Positions 5,123 to 34,796 of a stretch of DNA of 64,000 nucleotides are shown one piece after another. The translations under genes were made by a program, and so were the position numbers. The DNA is from Escherichia coli (GTDB taxonomy: Bacteria; Pseudomonadota; Gammaproteobacteria; Enterobacterales; Enterobacteriaceae). Under the pieces are notes generated by a model. That model was not told the DNA's origin, ran no database searches, and saw nothing but the letters and a program-made list of their open reading frames with translations. The stretch lies in assembly GCF_003790525.1 (NCBI RefSeq), contig NZ_CP033635.1, one strand, 5' to 3'. Positions within the stretch are counted from its first letter, which is position 1, and the number at the start of each line of letters is the position of its first letter.

Positions 5123-5667
5123 TGTGCGATCCGGTTATTGCTGGTGGCGCAATGCTCGCCATGAGTGGCATTCAGGCATACACCCAGTACCAACAGGGAA
5201 AGTATGCCTCGAAGGTTGCAGAAGCGAACGCAGATATAGCCACTGCTCAGGCAAATGATGCAATAAACATAGGTAACGCTGAAGCTGAGCAACGGCGCAG
5301 AGAGACCCGACAGCGGCTTGGTACACAGGCGGCGACAATGGGGGCTACCGGCGCTGATTTATCTACAGGTAACGCGCTGGATATATTTGGCGACACTGCT
5401 CAGTTTGGCGCTCTTGATGCGCTGACGACGGTGAATAACGCGCAACGCGAGGCTTACGGTTATCAGATGCAGGCTGCTAACTATAAAGCAGAAGCCAGTT
5501 CAGCCCGTAAACAGGGGAATGTGGGAGCAGCAACAACATTGCTCACTGCGCCTCTGAAGGCATACGGTGCGTACCAGATGTTTGGTGGGACGTGGAGTCC
5601 GTTTACTCAAAGCACTCCTGCGCCAATCGGGGCAGCAGCAGGAACCAGATTACCCGGAGGATTATAA
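5122..5667 (+). CDS. Internal virion protein (gp14-like)
   Basis: 181 aa, starts MC..., Ala/Gln-rich, same size class and position as T7 gp14. Confidence 0.5.
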   Translation: MCDPVIAGGAMLAMSGIQAYTQYQQGKYASKVAEANADIATAQANDAINIGNAEAEQRRRETRQRLGTQAATMGATGADLSTGNALDIFGDTAQFGALDALTTVNNAQREAYGYQMQAANYKAEASSARKQGNVGAATTLLTAPLKAYGAYQMFGGTWSPFTQSTPAPIGAAAGTRLPGGL

Positions 5668-9984: not shown

Positions 9985-12459
9985 ATGAGACAGGAATGTA
10001 TACAAGCGGTCCAGCAGGCGGCGCAGCGCACGTTAACGGCGCGAGAAATACAGAACATTGAAGACCGCATTTATCGAAATATGCGCTCCATTGCTCGTGA
10101 TGACCCGATGTCGTGGCGACAACTTTCCGAATCAGAACGGTTGTATCGTGCAGCACAATTGGCATCTGAAGAATTACAGCGAGAAGCGGCATTAAAGAAA
10201 CGTCGTGTGGCCCTCACTATAGCCGCACGTCAGAGATTGGATAAATTTATCAATAGCTATCAAGGGGCTGATGGGAAACTTGGCGCTCTTAACCGTACTA
10301 TTGCTTTTAATGCAGACGGTAAATCGAATTTCCTCTCTGTTGAATCCAGAACAAAAGCCACCCGTGATTATGCATTGAGTCAATTGCAGGAGGCATTCGA
10401 AGCAGTTGATCCTCGCTTTTTTGGTCTGTTTGAAGATGAAGCGGGCGTACGTGACCTGGTATATGAAATGCGGGGGCAAAATACTGGCAATGCTAAAGCA
10501 AGAAAAGGTGCTAAGGCGTGGAGAGAAGTTACAGAGCTGCTGCGCCGCCGGTTTAATGATGCTGGTGGGGACATTGGCTATCTCGAAAACTGGGGGATCC
10601 CTCAACATCATTCTATGGAAAAGGTTGGGGCGGTATCAAAGGATAAGTGGGTTAGCGATGTTATAGGTAAGCTGGATCGCAAATATTATACCCGAGCCGA
10701 TGGACAACTGATGAACGATGCCGAGTTGTCTGAATTTCTTGGAGAGGCTTATAACACGATCGCTACTGGTGGGCTGAATAAGCTTACTGATACCGGAATG
10801 CGAATTTCCGGCGCACGTGCTAACCGTGGTAATGCATCACGACAGATACATTTCAAAGATGCAGATTCCTATCTGCAATATCAGCAACTTTATGGCGATC
10901 GCTCTCTATGGGAAATCATGGTCGGTCACCTGGAAGGTATCAGTAAAGATATTGCGCTGGTGGAAACATATGGCCCAAACCCCGATCATGTTTTCCGCTC
11001 CCTTCTTGATCAGGTTAAGGCAGAAACGGCAACAGCTAACCCGAGTAAAACCGGTAGCGTCGAGCGTCTGGCGAACAAAACAGAGAACTTGTACAACTTT
11101 ATTTCCGGAAAAACACAGCCTGTAGCGAATCCGCACATCGCGCGATGGTCTGACAATATCCGCAACTGGCTGGTTGCCAGCAGACTCGGATCCGCGTTGC
11201 TGTCATCGTTCTCTGATCTTGGAACCATGTATCTGTCTGCGAAGGTTACCAACCTTCCAATGAACCAGTTATTTCGCAACCAGCTTGAAGCTATGGACCC
11301 AACGAACCGTACAGAACTTGCGCGGGCGCGCCGCGCTGGCCTGGCGATGGAATCTCTACTTGGCAGCGTTAACCGCTGGGCGATGGATAATATGGGGCCG
11401 TCTGTGTCTCGTTGGGCGGCAACGGCGGTAATGCGTGCCAGTGGGCTTACAGCATGGTCAGATGCGCACAAGCGCGCCTATGGCGTAACCATGATGGGAA
11501 GCCTGGGAGAAGTAGTGTCACGGACACCAGACCTTCGTAGCCTCGATGACTCTGATTTTCGTATCCTGAAAAGCAAAGGGATTACTGACACAGACTGGAG
11601 CGTATGGAAGCTGGCGCAACAGGAGGACTGGGGGAACGGTAATAATACGATGCTGACACCGGAAAGCATTATGCGTATCCCTGATTCAGCAGTTAAACAT
11701 CTTGGTGAGCCTGAACGCGTGAAATTTGAGGCAATGCGTAAACTGCTCGGTGCCGTAACTGAAGAAGTTGATATGGCTGTTATTACACCGGGCGCACGTG
11801 AACAGATGTTCGTAGGGTCTGGTCTTCAGCGTGGAACATGGAAAGGTGAATTAACGAGAAGTGTTTTCCTGTTTAAATCGTTCCCTATCTCGGTAGTTAT
11901 GCGTCACTGGCATAGAGCTATGGGGATGCCGTCTGCTGGTGGGCGTGCGGCATATATAGCAACGTTTTTAGCAAGCACAACCATGCTTGGTGCTCTTTCC
12001 ATGCAGATTACTGATCTTATTAATGGGAGAAATCCAAAAGAAATGACCGGTGACAACATGGTTAAATTCTGGATAAATGCATTTTTAAAAGGTGGTGGGG
12101 CAGGGTTGTATGGTGATTTTCTTTTCTCTGACCACACCAGGTACGGGAGCGGCGCACTAGCGTCGATGCTTGGCCCGGTAGCTGGTCTGGTTGATGACGT
12201 AGTGAAGATTGCTCAGGGCATACCGTTAAATGCTGTGGAAGGGAAGAATGAGCAGACTGGTGGTGATCTGGTTAAGCTTGGGAAAGGTTTGATGCCTGGT
12301 GCGAATCTCTGGTACTTGAAGGCGGCTCTCGATCACATGATCTTTAATCAGATGCAGGAGTATTTTTCACCAGGCTATTTGCGTAAAATGGAGCAACGTT
12401 CGAAGAAAGAGTTTAACCAGACATACTGGTGGCGACCTCAGGATGTCACTCCGCAATAA
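9985..12459 (+). CDS. Internal virion / ejection protein (gp16-like position), 824 aa
   Basis: Last large gene of the structural operon; AGAGG RBS upstream. Confidence 0.5.
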   Translation: MRQECIQAVQQAAQRTLTAREIQNIEDRIYRNMRSIARDDPMSWRQLSESERLYRAAQLASEELQREAALKKRRVALTIAARQRLDKFINSYQGADGKLGALNRTIAFNADGKSNFLSVESRTKATRDYALSQLQEAFEAVDPRFFGLFEDEAGVRDLVYEMRGQNTGNAKARKGAKAWREVTELLRRRFNDAGGDIGYLENWGIPQHHSMEKVGAVSKDKWVSDVIGKLDRKYYTRADGQLMNDAELSEFLGEAYNTIATGGLNKLTDTGMRISGARANRGNASRQIHFKDADSYLQYQQLYGDRSLWEIMVGHLEGISKDIALVETYGPNPDHVFRSLLDQVKAETATANPSKTGSVERLANKTENLYNFISGKTQPVANPHIARWSDNIRNWLVASRLGSALLSSFSDLGTMYLSAKVTNLPMNQLFRNQLEAMDPTNRTELARARRAGLAMESLLGSVNRWAMDNMGPSVSRWAATAVMRASGLTAWSDAHKRAYGVTMMGSLGEVVSRTPDLRSLDDSDFRILKSKGITDTDWSVWKLAQQEDWGNGNNTMLTPESIMRIPDSAVKHLGEPERVKFEAMRKLLGAVTEEVDMAVITPGAREQMFVGSGLQRGTWKGELTRSVFLFKSFPISVVMRHWHRAMGMPSAGGRAAYIATFLASTTMLGALSMQITDLINGRNPKEMTGDNMVKFWINAFLKGGGAGLYGDFLFSDHTRYGSGALASMLGPVAGLVDDVVKIAQGIPLNAVEGKNEQTGGDLVKLGKGLMPGANLWYLKAALDHMIFNQMQEYFSPGYLRKMEQRSKKEFNQTYWWRPQDVTPQ

Positions 12460-12468
12460 GGAACAACA

Positions 12469-12882
12469 ATGAAGGAATTATTGCTGTTATCGGTATTTTT
12501 GATATCCGCTTGCTCGACATCCTATGATGTTTATGACGGTGTTGATAAGGCATATTGCGACAAAGTTAAAATGGATTTTTCTCTTGCCAAGACGGCGAAG
12601 GATAGTTGTATTGATCACTACGTCAAGACTTATACCAAGCCAGCCTCATCGGCATCTGATATTGCTGAAGGTGCTGTGTTTGAGTGTAACAAGGTGATAT
12701 CCATCGCAGCGAGTTCTTCATACGATGCTGCTGTATGTGCAATGGCTGAAAGAAACGGCATGTCAGTGCAAAAAATTAATAGCATGATAAGCAGTAATGA
12801 CGAAGCCAAAATAAGAACTGATATCAGCTCGGTGAAAAAAGATGCCATGAACAGAGTTGTAAAATATCAGTCATCTTTATAA
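12469..12882 (+). CDS. Prophage lipoprotein (signal peptide with lipobox L-I-S-A-C), 137 aa, AT-rich gene
   Basis: N-terminus MKELLLLSVFLISAC read directly; AAGGA RBS; sits at the start of the accessory island. Confidence 0.65.
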   Translation: MKELLLLSVFLISACSTSYDVYDGVDKAYCDKVKMDFSLAKTAKDSCIDHYVKTYTKPASSASDIAEGAVFECNKVISIAASSSYDAAVCAMAERNGMSVQKINSMISSNDEAKIRTDISSVKKDAMNRVVKYQSSL

Positions 12883-12897
12883 GTCGTGACATGTCAC

Positions 12898-12922
12898 AGG
12901 CCGCTTTCGCGGCCTTGTTTTT
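12898..12922 (+). terminator. Intrinsic terminator of the structural operon / lipoprotein gene
   Basis: AGGCCGC-TTTC-GCGGCCT hairpin followed by TGTTTTT. Confidence 0.6.
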
Positions 12923-13082
12923 AACGAATGCCACCGCCACCCGGGCGGGAATCCGCAGAACGCCCACCGCAGCGGGAGCCGTCAGCAGCAGTGTCGCTGT
13001 CGTGCTGACAACGACCGGCAAAGGCCTGAGTTGAAGCTACCAGAGACAACAAAACGAACAGTGCAGCAAATGCTTTTTTCAT
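12921..13082 (-). CDS. Candidate small secreted peptide (53 aa, Sec signal MKKAFAALFVLLSLVASTQAFA, two Cys)
   Basis: Internal ATG of the 77-aa ORF; convincing signal peptide but weak RBS; possible TTGACG / TATAGA promoter just upstream. Confidence 0.3.
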   Translation of the reverse strand: MKKAFAALFVLLSLVASTQAFAGRCQHDSDTAADGSRCGGRSADSRPGGGGIR

Positions 13083-13154: not shown

Positions 13155-13176
13155 AAAAAAGCCCGCAGCGCGGGCT
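13155..13176 (-). terminator. Intrinsic terminator of the cargo operon
   Basis: AGCCCGC-GCU-GCGGGCU hairpin followed by six U on the - strand; overlaps the stop codon at 13175. Confidence 0.6.
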
Positions 13177-13902: not shown

Positions 13903-14589
13903 TCAGAAGAACCCAGCCTTGTCGTTGATGTACTCCGCGTGGGTCTGGATATCACGCAGGCATTTGCTCACACCAACAATGTAGCAGAACATGGTGGTCA
14001 GCTCCGCCGCCGCGCCCGATACGTCGTGCCCGTCTTCCTGTAACTGGTTCAGCAGATTCATCAGCAGTGAGTTCTCCGTCAGGCCGAGAACACCAGACGG
14101 AGAATGAATCAGGCTGCGGTAGCCGGGCTTCAGTGGGGCACTGTAGGTTTTGTTCTCTATCTTCATTGCCTGCATCACTGCTGATGCTGTGGCGTTGGCT
14201 ACCTGGTCGGCAACTATCTTTATGCGTTCTTCCTGCGGGAGCGAGTTTTTAATGTAACTTCCGGTGCGGCGGATCTGAGGAAGAACCTCACCTGTAACCC
14301 ATTTACGAAAGCGGTAGGGGATAGTGCCTGGTGTCACTGCGTCGCGGCAGCGGAGGATCAGTGTGTAGAGGCCTGACTCGTTGATAATATTGGTTTCACC
14401 TTGACGGCCTAAGTTAAATTTAGCCCTTTCATCATCATCAAGAGATTTTATTGACATAGTGGGGTTTGTCAGTTGAAGAGCTTTAATAACGTCTTTGGCA
14501 ACAAACCAAGGATTTCCATCAATAACAATGGCTCGAATGGTGGCTTCTGATTCAAAATGAAAAACAGATGGGGTTACGTTAGCAGTCAT
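13903..14589 (-). CDS. Antirepressor-like protein with N-terminal BRO-N / AntA-type domain, 228 aa
   Basis: Motifs FHFE...IR..IDG.PWFVAKDV and ESGLY.LI read in the translation (BRO-N family, from memory); start set at ATG 14589 with AAGGTGA RBS rather than ORF-track 14742, which has no RBS and a Gly/Cys-rich non-protein-like extension. Confidence 0.8.
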   Translation of the reverse strand: MTANVTPSVFHFESEATIRAIVIDGNPWFVAKDVIKALQLTNPTMSIKSLDDDERAKFNLGRQGETNIINESGLYTLILRCRDAVTPGTIPYRFRKWVTGEVLPQIRRTGSYIKNSLPQEERIKIVADQVANATASAVMQAMKIENKTYSAPLKPGYRSLIHSPSGVLGLTENSLLMNLLNQLQEDGHDVSGAAAELTTMFCYIVGVSKCLRDIQTHAEYINDKAGFF

Positions 14590-14742
14590 AGTGATCACCT
14601 TTGTAGTTAGGTTAATCACCACTACCGACGCCAATCGGTTGGTGGTGAACTGTGCAGGGTTGGCGTAACCGGCTACAAAGGACCCGGCGCACCTTTCGGT
14701 GCCCCCACACAGCCCACCATAGAATAGGTGCGCTTTACACAT

Positions 14743-14761
14743 AAAAAAACCGCTTATGCGG
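14743..14761 (-). terminator. Short intrinsic terminator or attenuator in the leader of the antirepressor-like gene (CCGC-AUAA-GCGG followed by seven U)
   Basis: Read on the - strand; stem is only 4-5 bp, so call is tentative. Confidence 0.4.
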
Positions 14762-14855
14762 CATATGTGCCTCTGTAGTAACCCGGGACGCCAATCCCGG
14801 CACTGGATTTTGCCAGTGCCCGATTACTATGGCACAAGAGGAGTGCGATGTAAAT

Positions 14856-24265: not shown

Positions 24266-27878
<3,613 letters not shown>

Positions 27879-30761: not shown

Positions 30762-32051
30762 ATGACGCGCCGTGCTATCGGGGTGAGTGAAAGACCGCCA
30801 CTTTTACAGACAATCCCGCTTAGTTTGCAACATTTGTTCGCCATGTTTGGTGCAACCGTCCTGGTGCCCGTCTTATTTCATATTAACCCGGCGACTGTAC
30901 TGTTATTTAACGGTATAGGAACGCTGCTGTATCTCTTCATCTGTAAAGGGAAAATCCCGGCTTATCTTGGTTCCAGCTTTGCCTTTATTTCACCGGTATT
31001 GTTACTGTTGCCGTTAGGGTATGAAGTCGCGCTGGGCGGCTTTATTATGTGCGGCGTGCTGTTCTGCCTGGTTTCTTTTATCGTGAAGAAAGCGGGGACC
31101 GGCTGGCTGGACGTGCTGTTTCCACCTGCGGCAATGGGCGCAATCGTTGCCGTCATCGGTCTGGAGTTGGCGGGCGTAGCTGCCGGTATGGCAGGTTTAC
31201 TCCCGGCTGAAGGGCAAACGCCAGACTCCAAAACCATCATCATCTCCATTACCACCCTGGCGGTCACGGTTTTAGGTTCCGTGCTGTTTCGTGGTTTCCT
31301 GGCAATTATCCCGATTTTAATTGGCGTGCTGGTGGGCTACGCGCTCTCTTTCGCAATGGGAATTGTCGATACCACGCCGATTATTAATGCTCACTGGTTT
31401 GCGCTGCCAACCCTCTATACGCCGCGCTTCGAGTGGTTTGCCATTCTGACTATTCTACCAGCGGCGTTAGTGGTTATTGCCGAACACGTAGGGCACCTGG
31501 TGGTAACGGCTAATATCGTCAAAAAAGATCTGCTGCGCGATCCAGGTCTGCACCGTTCGATGTTTGCTAACGGCTTGTCGACCGTGATCTCCGGCTTCTT
31601 TGGCTCCACGCCAAACACCACTTACGGAGAAAACATTGGCGTGATGGCGATCACCCGTGTTTACAGTACCTGGGTTATCGGCGGTGCGGCGATTTTCGCT
31701 ATCCTGCTTTCCTGCGTCGGTAAACTGGCTGCTGCTATCCAGATGATTCCATTGCCGGTGATGGGCGGCGTTTCGCTGCTGCTTTACGGTGTCATCGGTG
31801 CTTCCGGTATTCGTGTGTTGATCGAATCGAAAGTGGATTACAACAAAGCACAGAACCTGATCCTGACTTCCGTTATTTTGATCATCGGCGTCAGTGGCGC
31901 GAAGGTAAACATTGGCGCGGCGGAGCTGAAAGGTATGGCGCTGGCGACCATCGTCGGTATCGGCTTAAGTTTGATCTTCAAACTGATTAGTATGCTGCGC
32001 CCTGAAGAAGTGGTGCTGGACGCAGAAGACGCGGATATAACAGACAAATAA
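30762..32051 (+). CDS. uraA: Uracil permease
   Basis: 429 aa from [10 protein letters not shown]; polytopic membrane protein. Confidence 0.95.
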
Positions 32052-32145
32052 TGTACCGACCGGGCAGTGTTGCTGCCCGGTTCAAACATCATGGGATTCT
32101 GTGGTAAACTTCTCGCGATTTTGTGAAATCCTGGTTGAGGTATCT

Positions 32146-32847
32146 CTGAACACACCGGCACAGCTCTCTTTGCCACTTTATCTTCCTGACGACGAAACCT
32201 TTGCAAGTTTCTGGCCGGGGGATAACTCCTCTTTACTGGCCGCGCTGCAAAACGTGCTGCGTCAGGAACATAGCGGTTACATCTATCTCTGGGCACGCGA
32301 AGGCGCGGGGCGCAGCCATCTGCTGCACGCGGCTTGCGCGGAATTGTCACAGCGTGGCGATGCGGTGGGTTATGTCCCGCTGGATAAACGCACCTGGTTT
32401 GTTCCGGAAGTGCTCGACGGTATGGAGCATTTGTCGCTGGTCTGTATCGACAACATTGAGTGTATTGCAGGCGATGAGTTGTGGGAGATGGCGATTTTCG
32501 ATCTCTACAATCGAATTCTGGAATCGGGTAAAACACGGTTGTTGATCACCGGCGATCGTCCACCGCGGCAGTTGAATCTGGGATTACCGGATCTCGCGTC
32601 GCGTCTCGACTGGGGGCAGATCTACAAATTGCAGCCACTTTCTGATGAAGATAAGTTGCAGGCGCTACAGTTACGCGCTCGTTTGCGTGGTTTTGAACTG
32701 CCGGAAGATGTGGGGCGTTTCTTGCTGAAGCGGCTCGACAGAGAAATGCGCACGTTATTTATGACGCTGGATCAGTTGGATCGTGCGTCGATTACCGCGC
32801 AACGTAAGCTGACCATTCCGTTTGTGAAAGAAATTCTGAAGTTGTAG
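32146..32847 (+). CDS. hda: DnaA regulatory inactivator Hda (non-AUG start; ORF-track frame begins at GTG 32101)
   Basis: Established knowledge places the Hda start at an in-frame CTG giving 233 aa; CTG present at 32146. Confidence 0.8.
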
Positions 32848-32883
32848 ACAAGACGTTTATTGTCGGAAATGCACCCATAGTAT

Positions 32884-32926
32884 TCGTCGGCCGGATAAGA
32901 CGCGGCAAGCGTCGCATCCGGCAATG
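32884..32926. repeat. REP (repetitive extragenic palindromic) element
   Basis: GCCGGATAAG...GCATCCGGC-type palindromic unit in the hda / yfgD intergenic region. Confidence 0.6.
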
Positions 32927-32952
32927 TGCTTCAACTAGCGATGGAGCACTTC

Positions 32953-33312
32953 TTAACCCACGATTTCCAGTACCTGCTCCGGTGGACGACCAATCCGCGC
33001 TTTGCCATTCGCGACCACAATCGGGCGCTCCATTAGCTTTGGATTATCCACCATTGCCTGAATCAGCGCCCCTTCGCTAAGCGAACTGTCAGCCAGGTTC
33101 AGTTCTTTATAAAGATCCTCTTTCTGGCGCATCAATTCACGAGCGCTATTCATTCCCAGCATTTTCAGCAAATCACGCAGCGTTGCCGCATCGGCGGGTG
33201 TCTGAAGGTAGAGCACCACTTCTGGCTCCACGCCGTTTTCTTTCAGCAGGTTCAGCGTTTCCCGGCTCTTTGAACAGCGTGGGTTATGGTAGATTTTTAC
33301 CTGTTTGGTCAT
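32953..33312 (-). CDS. yfgD: ArsC-family protein YfgD (119 aa)
   Basis: Size and position as in K-12; N-terminal ...YHNPRCSKSR motif. Confidence 0.85.
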   Translation of the reverse strand: MTKQVKIYHNPRCSKSRETLNLLKENGVEPEVVLYLQTPADAATLRDLLKMLGMNSARELMRQKEDLYKELNLADSSLSEGALIQAMVDNPKLMERPIVVANGKARIGRPPEQVLEIVG

Positions 33313-33332
33313 TGTTCTTCCTTTAATGCGAA

Positions 33333-34796
33333 TTACATCTTGGTATAAGGCTTAAAGCGTTCCTGCAGCTGGCGCAACTGGTCGATGCGCGCATCGTAAC
33401 GCGCTTGTTGCAGGCTGCCTAATTTCACCTGCGAACTGGCGCTACTCAACAAGGAAATGGCCTGATCGAGTCGCCCGGCGAGCGCATAACCTTCTGCTCG
33501 CGCAGCCAGTTCCTGATCGCGGTTATTTAGCGCGGCTTCCGCCTGTGCCAGTAAATCCCAGCCGTTGCTGTCATCTTTATTATTAAAAGTGTAGCGATTC
33601 AGAATATTGGCCGCTTCTTGTGGTTGACCGCCTTGCAGATAAGCGTTCGCCAGGTTGAGCTGCAACACCGGATTGGTGCGCAAATCACGGGCATTTTTCA
33701 GGCGATTGATTGCCTCATTGGCTTTGTTTTGCCCAAGATCGATATCGGTAGCCAGATCGAGATACCATGCGTTACCAGGTTCTGCCGCCAGTAACGGTTG
33801 CAGCGTTTTACGCGCCTCATCGTATTTATTGGCTTCCATCGCCTGTAGAGCACGACCATATTGCGCCGCTCGTTGCTGACGAACGTTTCCTTTCGCCCAT
33901 TCATCCAGCAAATCACTGGTGAGCTGGTTACGTCCGGAATTATACATCCCCAGTGTGCGCACTTTTGCCAGATAGAAATCTTCTGACGATTGCACCACCA
34001 TCGGGCGCATCTGATTGGCACGGTTACGGGCATCAGCCAGACGGCTTTCCGGTAGTGGGTGAGTGAGCAGAATTTCTGGTGGGCGCGAGGAGTAACGCGC
34101 CTGATCGAGTAATTTTTCGAGGAAGGTCGGCATCGCCTGCGGATCGAATCCCGAGCGTTGCAGCACCTGAATACCAATGCGGTCCGCTTCCTGTTCATTT
34201 TGCTGGGTGAAACTGATCATCCCCTGGCGCGTTCCCGCCAGTGTACCGGTCAGCGCCGCCATCCCCGCCTGCGGACTGGCCATCGCCAGTAAAATAGAAC
34301 CTAACGCGCCGACCCAGGTCAGCGGCGCGCTGCGCTGCTGATCTTCCATCGCTCGCGCCAGGTGACGTTGGGTGACGTGGGAGATTTCGTGCGCCATAAC
34401 TGAAGCCAGTTGACTTTCGTTATCGGAATAACGGAACAGGGCAGAGTGCAGCACCACGTTGCCGCCAAAGAAAGCAAAGGCGTTAATTTCGTCGTTGTTG
34501 ATCAGAAAGAAATGAAACGGTGTCTTAACCGAATTGGCATGCGAAACCAGACGCATCCCCAGCGAATTAATATATTGCGTTAACAGCGGGTCATTAATTA
34601 ACGGCGCGCTGCCGCGTAGCTGGCGGACATAATAGTCGCCCATCTGCATTTCCTGGCCAATGGAAAGCGTGCTTCCTGCGGAGGTTCCCATATCCGGCAA
34701 GGTGTCTGCGCTGTCGGCAAACGCCGGGGCTACCTGACCAATGGTCATAGCAGCAATGAGGGTTGCAACCAGGTTTTTTTTCAACTGCCTGAACAT
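33333..34796 (-). CDS. bepA: Periplasmic beta-barrel assembly-enhancing protease BepA (M48 peptidase with TPR domain)
   Basis: 487 aa with HEISH zinc motif and signal peptide. Confidence 0.9.

What the first reader, a model, noticed from the sequence alone, without database searches (positions are those of the whole stretch)
12886..12897. Perfect 12-bp palindrome GTGACATGTCAC between the lipoprotein stop codon and the terminator hairpin
Seen: exact palindrome four nt after the stop codon and immediately 5' of the terminator stem. It could be a protein-binding site or part of a larger terminator structure.
Basis: seen in the sequence. Interest (0 to 1): 0.25.

Follow-up and report, generated by a model that had tools for sequence, protein, structure and literature searches.

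The report
Repeated operator-like palindrome at phage terminators
The 12-bp palindrome is one of three identical copies of a strongly conserved phage control site, GTGAC-NN-GTCAC, that travels with a small uncharacterised DNA-binding protein and sits beside transcription terminators at the borders of exchangeable gene cassettes.

Summary
The palindrome GTGACATGTCAC is at 12886-12897, 3 nt after the lipoprotein stop codon and 1 nt before the terminator stem. On its own it is unremarkable: the window holds 16 such 12-bp palindromes and about 16-19 are expected. Comparison changes that. It is exact in 175 of 183 distinct related loci that carry it. These loci have at least 10 different upstream cassettes, 6 spacers, 15 hairpin-loop alleles and even different hairpins. 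Complete relatives (phiV10, SPN1S, TL-2011b, an E. coli MS 198-1 prophage) carry two or three exact copies. One lies over the stop codon of a 112-aa ribbon-helix-helix/zinc-ribbon protein (phiV10 p55, phrog_536) before terS. One lies beside the terL terminator. The third is this site. The window misses the other two because it covers only the late half of the prophage. GTGAC-NN-GTCAC also lies at the 3' end of p55-family genes in lambdoid, N15-like (51 of 51 loci), Mu-like and ZF40 phages. Further copies lie elsewhere in Vibrio and P2-like phage genomes. The half-sites match host matS (GTGAC-N3-GTCAC) with one base pair less. Best reading: an operator for the p55-family protein that acts on transcription at terminator-flanked module borders. 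Binding and effect are untested.

The parts
12886..12897 (.). Palindrome GTGACATGTCAC, an instance of the GTGAC-NN-GTCAC element ('site 1' of three in complete relatives).
   Evidence: Exact in 175 of 183 distinct related loci that carry it. It corresponds to copy 35881 of 3 in the MS 198-1 prophage.
12898..12923 (+). Intrinsic terminator: stem AGGCCGC/GCGGCCT with loop TTTC (12898-12915), then T tract TGTTTTTA. It is strong for rightward transcripts and has no U tract for leftward ones.
   Evidence: Stem kept in 94 of 97 sequences, with 15 loop alleles.
12469..12882 (+). Lipoprotein cassette ORF (137 aa, lipobox LISAC). It is one of at least 10 alternative cassettes that end at the palindrome.
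   Evidence: Homology with other phages stops just after the upstream gene's stop codon and resumes at 12885.
9985..12459 (+). 824-aa virion structural gene (phiV10 p20-like), the conserved left arm of the cassette slot.
12921..13082 (-). Convergent small secreted or membrane-anchored peptide gene (53 aa). Its stop lies 5 nt from the hairpin stem. It is the last gene of the leftward ant operon.
   Evidence: The right flank of the hairpin is itself variable.

Best explanation
The palindrome is one copy of a repeated cis-element, GTGAC-NN-GTCAC, which in this lineage is always GTGACATGTCAC. It is most likely the DNA operator for a dimer of a small phage-encoded ribbon-helix-helix plus zinc-ribbon protein (phiV10 p55 / epsilon15 gp49 family, phrog_536). 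That gene lies about 20 kb upstream in prophages of this type, outside the window. Complete relatives carry up to three copies. One lies over the stop codon of the p55 gene, 20-40 bp before the terminator that precedes terS. One lies 4 bp from the terminator after terL. The third is here, 1 bp before the terminator that closes the virion-gene block. Bound at these terminator-flanked module borders, the protein probably changes what RNA polymerase does at the adjacent terminator. I favour help with rightward late read-through towards the tailspike and lysis genes. A roadblock that makes the one-way terminators two-way is the alternative. Because the site is needed and its neighbours are dispensable, it also ends up as the exact junction at which accessory cassettes are exchanged. 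Shown: conservation, copy number, the gene-site linkage and the RHH-like fold. Inferred: binding by p55 and the effect on termination.
Against: No binding data exist. The link to p55 is statistical and positional. In ZF40, phiKO2 and the Mu-like prophage some copies lie inside coding regions with no terminator nearby, so the terminator link is not universal. The Yersinia P2-like phage and L452 have the motif elsewhere but not at the gene's own 3' end. Relative to rightward transcription, the palindrome precedes the hairpin at sites 1 and 3 but follows it at site 2, which no single simple mechanism explains. One further strong GGCCGC-type hairpin in the MS 198-1 prophage (38711) has no palindrome. 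Several phages that carry p55 also have a Q-type antiterminator, so p55 is not generally the late regulator. The window's own genome was not available upstream, so the presence of p55 there is inferred from the closest relative (97.8% identity).
Confidence: 0.55

Rival explanations
1. The site is a matS-like site bound by the host protein MatP. The phage would use or perturb the host Ter-macrodomain, MukBEF or ZapB machinery. The p55 linkage would then be secondary.
For: The half-sites are identical to matS: GTGAC[AG]N[TC]GTCAC, with E. coli consensus GTGACATTGTCAC. The phage site equals matS minus the central base pair. In the 'phages' collection, p55-family hits come from Escherichia, Salmonella, Klebsiella, Yersinia, Vibrio and Aeromonas phages among others. 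From memory, these are orders that possess MatP. No MatP homologue is detectable in phiV10, so any MatP involved would be the host's.
Against: The spacing is 2 bp in every phage copy examined, and no N3 form was found where I looked for it (phiV10, ZF40, the Yersinia phage, P22 and the window). MatP is a fixed dimer, so a 1-bp deletion should misalign the half-sites (inference). matS is reported to be absent from 500 Escherichia and Salmonella prophages and counter-selected there (PMC3603311). The prophage sits next to guaA, which from my knowledge of the K-12 map is outside the Ter macrodomain. MatP binding would not explain the tight link to the 3' end of one phage gene.
Confidence: 0.1
2. 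The element acts in RNA. It would be a small stem-loop in the 3' UTR just 5' of the terminator hairpin. It could be part of the terminator, an insulator or stabiliser, or the target of an RNA-binding antiterminator or nuclease.
For: In all three Uetakevirus sites and the Edwardsiella prophage the order on the terminated transcript is stop codon, palindrome, hairpin, U tract. Most minimum-energy folds draw it as a separate 4-5 bp hairpin next to the terminator.
Against: The hairpin alone is -1.2 kcal/mol, no better than shuffles. There are no compensatory changes, and the would-be loop does not vary in this lineage while the neighbouring terminator loop has 15 alleles. The spacer to the terminator ranges from 1 nt to a whole gene. 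Copies occur inside genes on either strand in other phages. No Rfam family matches at the site. The linked protein has a DNA-binding RHH-like fold.
Confidence: 0.12
3. The site is only a conserved 'linker'. It would be a short island of identity, together with the terminator, at which homologous or RecET-type recombination swaps neighbouring cassettes. It would have no binding function of its own.
For: All three sites are exact mosaic junctions. At least 10 left cassettes abut site 1, at least 6 cassettes abut site 2, and site 3 has two right-flank classes. Left-cassette classes combine freely with right-flank classes and loop alleles, which is a four-gamete pattern. These phages encode RecT or RecE-type recombinases.
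Against: A linker need not be a perfect dyad, need not stay invariant while its immediate neighbours mutate, and need not recur beside different hairpins. It also would not track one protein family across unrelated phage types with the half-sites fixed and only the centre changing. Junction behaviour follows naturally from an essential site flanked by dispensable DNA.
Confidence: 0.08
4. It is a chance palindrome with no function.
For: The window has as many 12-bp palindromes as expected by chance. The site is unique in the window.
Against: The conservation, recurrence and gene linkage listed above. Two or three exact copies per roughly 40-kb genome are seen where about 0.002-0.003 are expected.
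Confidence: 0.01

Closest known systems
matS / MatP (E. coli Ter macrodomain organiser)
   Different: The phage site is 12 bp with an N2 centre, not 13 bp with N3. It lies in a prophage near guaA rather than in Ter. Profile-sequence comparison of p55 with MatP is not significant. p55 has a Cys4 zinc ribbon and lacks MatP's four-helix bundle. matS is reported absent from prophages.
Ribbon-helix-helix repressor/operator pairs of phages and plasmids (P22 Arc and Mnt, CopG, omega, ParG, type II antitoxins)
   Same: A small dimeric RHH protein is paired with a short dyad-symmetric site encoded next to its gene (fold; linkage).
   Different: Known operators overlap promoters upstream of the regulated gene. 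Here the site overlaps the 3' end or stop codon of the regulator gene. The other copies sit beside terminators or inside genes, and no promoter is consistently associated. The GTGACA/CATGAT match at site 3 is weak and is impossible in the Edwardsiella arrangement.
Lambda/P22 Q-qut-tR' late antitermination (also N-nut and HK022 put)
   Same: A small regulator gene is the last early gene before a terminator that precedes the terminase genes. Rightward late transcripts would have to cross further terminators. P22 annotation shows the classical layout.
   Different: There is no Q homologue. The site is not tied to a promoter or pause element. It recurs at internal terminators. No boxA/boxB or put-like RNA was found. 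p55 coexists with true Q proteins in other phages.
Conserved boundary or 'linker' sequences at mosaic junctions of lambdoid phages, and moron gene-terminator units (named from my own knowledge of the literature, not checked here)
   Same: Exact junctions between alternative cassettes and a conserved short block that includes a terminator.
   Different: Here the boundary block contains a discrete repeated dyad tied to a specific protein family. That has not, to my knowledge, been shown for those linkers.

Membership tests
matS (MatP site) | 13-bp motif GTGAC-R-N-Y-GTCAC | tested here: not met
   The site is 12 bp, GTGAC-AT-GTCAC. No N3 form occurs in the window, phiV10, ZF40, the Yersinia phage or P22. 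The motif definition comes from PMC3603311 and PMC8669397.
matS (MatP site) | Confined to the Ter macrodomain of the host chromosome | tested here: not met
   The prophage is integrated beside guaA/yfgI. That this locus lies outside Ter rests on my knowledge of the K-12 map.
matS (MatP site) | Bound by MatP | not testable with these tools
   This needs EMSA or ChIP. No MatP homologue is encoded by phiV10.
Intrinsic terminator (palindrome as part of it) | G+C-rich hairpin directly followed by a U tract | tested here: met
   This holds for 12898-12923 only. The palindrome lies outside this unit.
Intrinsic terminator (palindrome as part of it) | The element pairs within or extends the terminator stem at fixed spacing and evolves by compensatory change | tested here: not met
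   There are 6 spacer alleles, alternative hairpins, and a gene inserted between the two in L306. No compensatory changes are seen. No extended stem is consistent across the 12 contexts folded.
RHH-protein operator | Short inverted repeat with conserved half-sites, repeated in the element that encodes the protein | tested here: met
   The half-sites GTGAC/GTCAC are invariant, with centres AT, TG, GG, CT, CG, AG, AC or GT. Each genome examined has 1-3 copies. Only one copy falls inside the window.
RHH-protein operator | A cognate protein with a ribbon-helix-helix fold is encoded nearby | tested here: met
RHH-protein operator | Direct, sequence-specific binding of the protein to the site | not testable with these tools
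   This needs EMSA, footprinting or ChIP.
Q/qut, N/nut or put antitermination sites | Promoter-proximal binding element with a pause site, or boxA/boxB or put RNA structures | tested here: not met
   Only a weak promoter-like match overlaps site 3 (9 of 12). None is possible at sites 1 and 2 or in the Edwardsiella layout. No Rfam hit lies at the site.
Site-specific recombination core (attP, attC, dif-like) | A dedicated recombinase is present and the site is duplicated at both cassette ends | tested here: inconclusive
   Cassettes carry the palindrome at one end only. The only integrase is the P4-type Int, whose attP region lies elsewhere. No further test was made.

The most novel reading that the evidence does not exclude
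The p55 (phrog_536) proteins and their GTGAC-N2-GTCAC sites form an undescribed, widespread phage system. In it a MatP-like RHH protein bound at a few fixed DNA sites acts on elongating RNA polymerase at neighbouring terminators, as a DNA-site-dependent, terminator-proximal switch for late genes. Alternatively it acts as a phage counterpart of MatP/matS that organises phage DNA or shields it from host SMC (MukBEF) or Ter machinery.
Probability: 0.15. Interest if true: 0.85.

Novelty: new variant of a known kind. Interest (0 to 1): 0.6.

Why it matters
If the reading is right, a bare 12-mer points to a regulator-site pair present in many temperate phages of Enterobacterales, Vibrio and Aeromonas. 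These include podo-, myo-, lambdoid, N15-like, Mu-like and P2-like genomes. No paper in the searched library mentions it, and Pfam and NCBIfam have no family for the protein. It would give epsilon15/phiV10-type phages, which lack a Q homologue, a candidate mechanism for getting late transcription across internal terminators. It would also explain why accessory lysogenic-conversion cassettes are swapped at exactly the same nucleotide. The identity of the half-sites with host matS, which prophages otherwise avoid, raises a directly testable question of cross-talk with chromosome organisation. Practically, the motif is a good marker for cassette slots and module borders in prophage annotation.

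Tried and rejected
- Chance: rejected by conservation and recurrence.
- Extended terminator or sib-like long stem: the leftward RNA of the window can pair AUGUCAC with GUGGCAU upstream of the hairpin. This depends on one right-flank class and is absent in the other 11 contexts.
- Hidden ORF through the palindrome (ATG at 12891, or GTG at 12886): spacer indels shift the frame, so no ORF is conserved.
- Promoter: GTGACA resembles a -35 element, but there is no conserved -10 at sites 1 and 2. Site 3 gives only a 9 of 12 match.
- Known RNA family: none at the site.
- CRP/FNR, LexA, SlmA (GTGAGTACTCAC), PhoB, OmpR, and the Arc and Mnt operators were compared from memory. Spacing or core bases do not fit.
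- Phage-encoded MatP: none found.
- p55-MatP sequence homology: not significant.
- Literature: no paper holds the 12-mer, and nothing on Uetakevirus palindromes or late control was found.
- Cross-tabulating the motif against p55 in the hairpin-derived contigs was uninformative, because those loci are too short to reach p55.
- Scans of the large collections for the bare 12-mer were not possible, because a pattern needs 14 specified bases.

Full report
**Observation.** The sequence GTGACATGTCAC is at window 12886-12897. It lies 3 nt after the TAA of a 137-aa lipoprotein ORF (12469-12882). It lies 1 nt before the stem of a canonical terminator: AGGCCGC-TTTC-GCGGCCT followed by TGTTTTTA, 12898-12923. 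On the other strand a small secreted-peptide gene (12921-13082) converges on the same hairpin. As a palindrome it is nothing special. The window contains 16 perfect 12-bp palindromes. That compares with 15.6 expected for random sequence and 19 +/- 5 in dinucleotide shuffles. The 12-mer has no second copy in the window even at 2 mismatches.

**Context.** The left 20 kb of the window is the late half of a phiV10/epsilon15-type (Uetakevirus) prophage inserted next to guaA/yfgI. The rest is host DNA identical to E. coli SMS-3-5. Gene order is: virion genes, the 824-aa structural gene, the lipoprotein cassette, palindrome plus terminator, a leftward ant operon, then tailspike and lysis genes. The ant operon contains a Bro-N antirepressor preceded by Rfam C4 and isrK RNAs. 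The early and regulatory half of the prophage is not in the window.

**Conservation at this site.** In phiV10, TL-2011b, phiv142-3 and others, homology with the window begins exactly at C-GTGACATGTCAC, with unrelated DNA to the left.

I sampled loci without regard to the palindrome, anchoring on the C-terminus of the upstream structural protein from E. coli, Klebsiella and Salmonella phages. This gave 197 distinct downstream regions:
- 183 carry the palindrome and 175 of those are exact.
- The 8 variants are single, uncompensated changes.
- 14 more distant loci lack it, and one of those keeps a relic.

Around it everything else varies:
- at least 10 unrelated left cassettes, several of which use the TGA inside the palindrome as their stop codon;
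- six spacer alleles (A, G, AA, GA, AAA, TCCAACAAACA);
- 15 loop alleles on a conserved GGCCGC/GCGGCC stem;
- many right flanks.

Four loci pair the palindrome with a different hairpin (AGCCCGC...GCGGGCT). In L306 a whole gene separates palindrome and hairpin.

So the hairpin evolves like a structure, with the stem kept and the loop free. The palindrome evolves like a recognised sequence, and it is not part of the terminator. RNA folding agrees. The mini-hairpin is -1.2 kcal/mol, no better than shuffles. No extended stem is shared among 12 contexts.

**More copies.** Complete genomes showed what the window could not:
- phiV10 has a second exact copy at 2262, 4 bp from the annotated terminator after terL (a different hairpin), abutting a leftward cassette.
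- SPN1S has three exact copies (2174, 19662, 38653).
- TL-2011b has two.
- The closest complete relative of the window's prophage is E. coli MS 198-1 (97.8% identity, same lipoprotein cassette). It has exactly three copies: 16073, 18338 and 35881 in L457 coordinates. About 0.0025 exact copies are expected per 41 kb.

Site 2, after terL, is present in 79 of 80 TerL-anchored loci and abuts at least 6 different cassettes. Site 3 is present in 73 of 77 loci. It overlaps the TGA of the last early-right gene, a 112-aa 'transcriptional regulator' (phiV10 p55, phrog_536). A strong terminator follows 20-40 bp downstream, and then terS.

On the transcript that each terminator ends, the order is always stop codon, palindrome, hairpin, U tract.

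**Link to the p55 family.** Homologues of p55 occur in quite different phages. GTGAC-NN-GTCAC sits on or next to the 3' end of the homologue in most of them.

| Phage or locus | Identity to p55 | Motif and position |
|---|---|---|
| Edwardsiella lambdoid prophage | 79% | Stop inside GTGACATGTCAC, then a terminator |
| Pectobacterium myovirus ZF40 | 66% | 2 nt after the stop; three exact copies in the genome |
| L451 | 61% | GTGACCTGTCAC over the stop |
| phiKO2 | 37% | GTGACTGGTCAC over the stop; a second copy in repA |
| N15-like viral contigs | 44-94% to phiKO2 p45 | 51 of 51 loci: 49 GTGACTGGTCAC, one GTGACGGGTCAC, one GTGACATGTCAC |
| Mu-like prophage (L454) | 38% | GTGACCGGTCAC 36 nt before the stop; GTGACTGGTCAC in MuA |
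| L455 | 32% | GTGACAGGTCAC 15 nt after the stop |
| Vibrio phage K303 | 31% | GTGACACGTCAC twice in 7.7 kb, one 31 bp before terS |
| Yersinia P2-like phage | 40% | GTGACATGTCAC plus a 1-mismatch copy 33 bp away, 3.4 kb downstream of the gene |
| Aeromonas phage | 30% | Altered half-site, GTGACCGGACAC, three times in 6.9 kb |

In total, 237 kb of p55-bearing DNA holds 15 motifs against 0.23 expected. Other viral contigs (709 kb) hold 2 against 0.68 expected. Host DNA (94 kb) and P22, which has no homologue, hold none. Nine of the twelve bases lie beyond the stop codon, so protein coding cannot explain the link.

**Mechanism.** The following are well supported: the element is under strong sequence-specific selection, it recurs, and it is tied to the p55 family. 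I infer that p55 binds it.

Its role is less certain. In Uetakeviruses each copy lies within 42 bp of a strong terminator. p55 is the last gene before the terminator that precedes terS, and these phages lack a Q homologue. That suggests control of read-through into and along the late region.

Three facts argue against a simple version of this idea. At site 2 the palindrome follows the hairpin for rightward transcription. One further strong hairpin (38711 in MS 198-1) has no palindrome. In other phages copies lie inside genes, or p55 coexists with Q. A roadblock that makes the one-way terminators effective against convergent transcription is an alternative.

The exact mosaic junctions at all three sites, and the free recombination of left and right neighbours, follow from an indispensable site flanked by dispensable cassettes. 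A direct role in recombination is not excluded.

**Verdict.** The 'larger terminator structure' guess is not. The finding is more interesting than it looked. It is one visible copy of an apparently undescribed regulator-site pair that is widespread in temperate phages of enteric and related bacteria.

Noticed in passing
window 14638-14832 (- strand): Rfam hits to C4 antisense RNA (79.5 bits), isrK (74.7 bits) and c4-a1b1 (44.1 bits, just under threshold) lie directly upstream of the Bro-N antirepressor gene 13903-14742. This suggests P1-type immI (c4/icd/ant) control of ant in this podovirus-type prophage.
   Followed up: no
window 13160-13176: A second terminator-like hairpin, AGCCCGCAGCGCGGGCT, has T-rich tails on both strands. 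It lies between the small peptide gene and the 193-aa ORF. The same hairpin type is fused directly to the palindrome in loci L300, L301, L305 and L307.
   Followed up: partly
window 12464-12885: The lipoprotein gene is a replaceable cassette. Other phages carry a 46-aa two-TM protein, roughly 100-130-aa membrane proteins or other genes in the same slot, from just after the structural gene's stop to the palindrome. No function was assigned to any of them.
   Followed up: partly
window 26439-26450 and 33384-33395 (host DNA): The 12-bp palindrome GATGCGCGCATC occurs twice in the host part of the window.
   Followed up: no
L457 16126-16200 (E. coli MS 198-1 prophage); phiV10 record start: Two direct repeats, GGTACTATTACCAC and GGTAACTATTACCAC, lie between the site-3 terminator and the probable ATGATG start of terS. 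They may be a terminase or pac-related site. The annotated TTG start of terS lies upstream of the terminator hairpin and is probably mis-called.
   Followed up: no
L445 (TL-2011b) 31300-34115: Two antirepressor genes with the same C-terminal coding sequence converge on the palindrome and terminator from opposite sides. Inverted copies of the GC-rich tail sequence flank the block, which suggests a past inversion or duplication around the hairpin.
   Followed up: no
L446 (SPN1S) 26722-26733: A one-mismatch copy, GTGACATGTCAT, overlaps the stop codon of the Rz-like spanin at the end of the lysis operon, next to attP. phiV10 has no counterpart.
   Followed up: no
L364 (phiV10) 5306-5317; L445 16873-16884: A one-mismatch copy, GTGACATGGCAC, is conserved inside the small gene after the portal gene. 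It could be a weak fourth site or simply a coding constraint.
   Followed up: no
L450 (phiKO2) 3632, 6072, 11111, 14345: The annotated plasmid-partition sites GTGCGACCACGGTCGCAC are dispersed 18-bp palindromes, often near terminators or promoters. This is a similar lifestyle of dispersed dyads in the same genome that also carries GTGACTGGTCAC.
   Followed up: no
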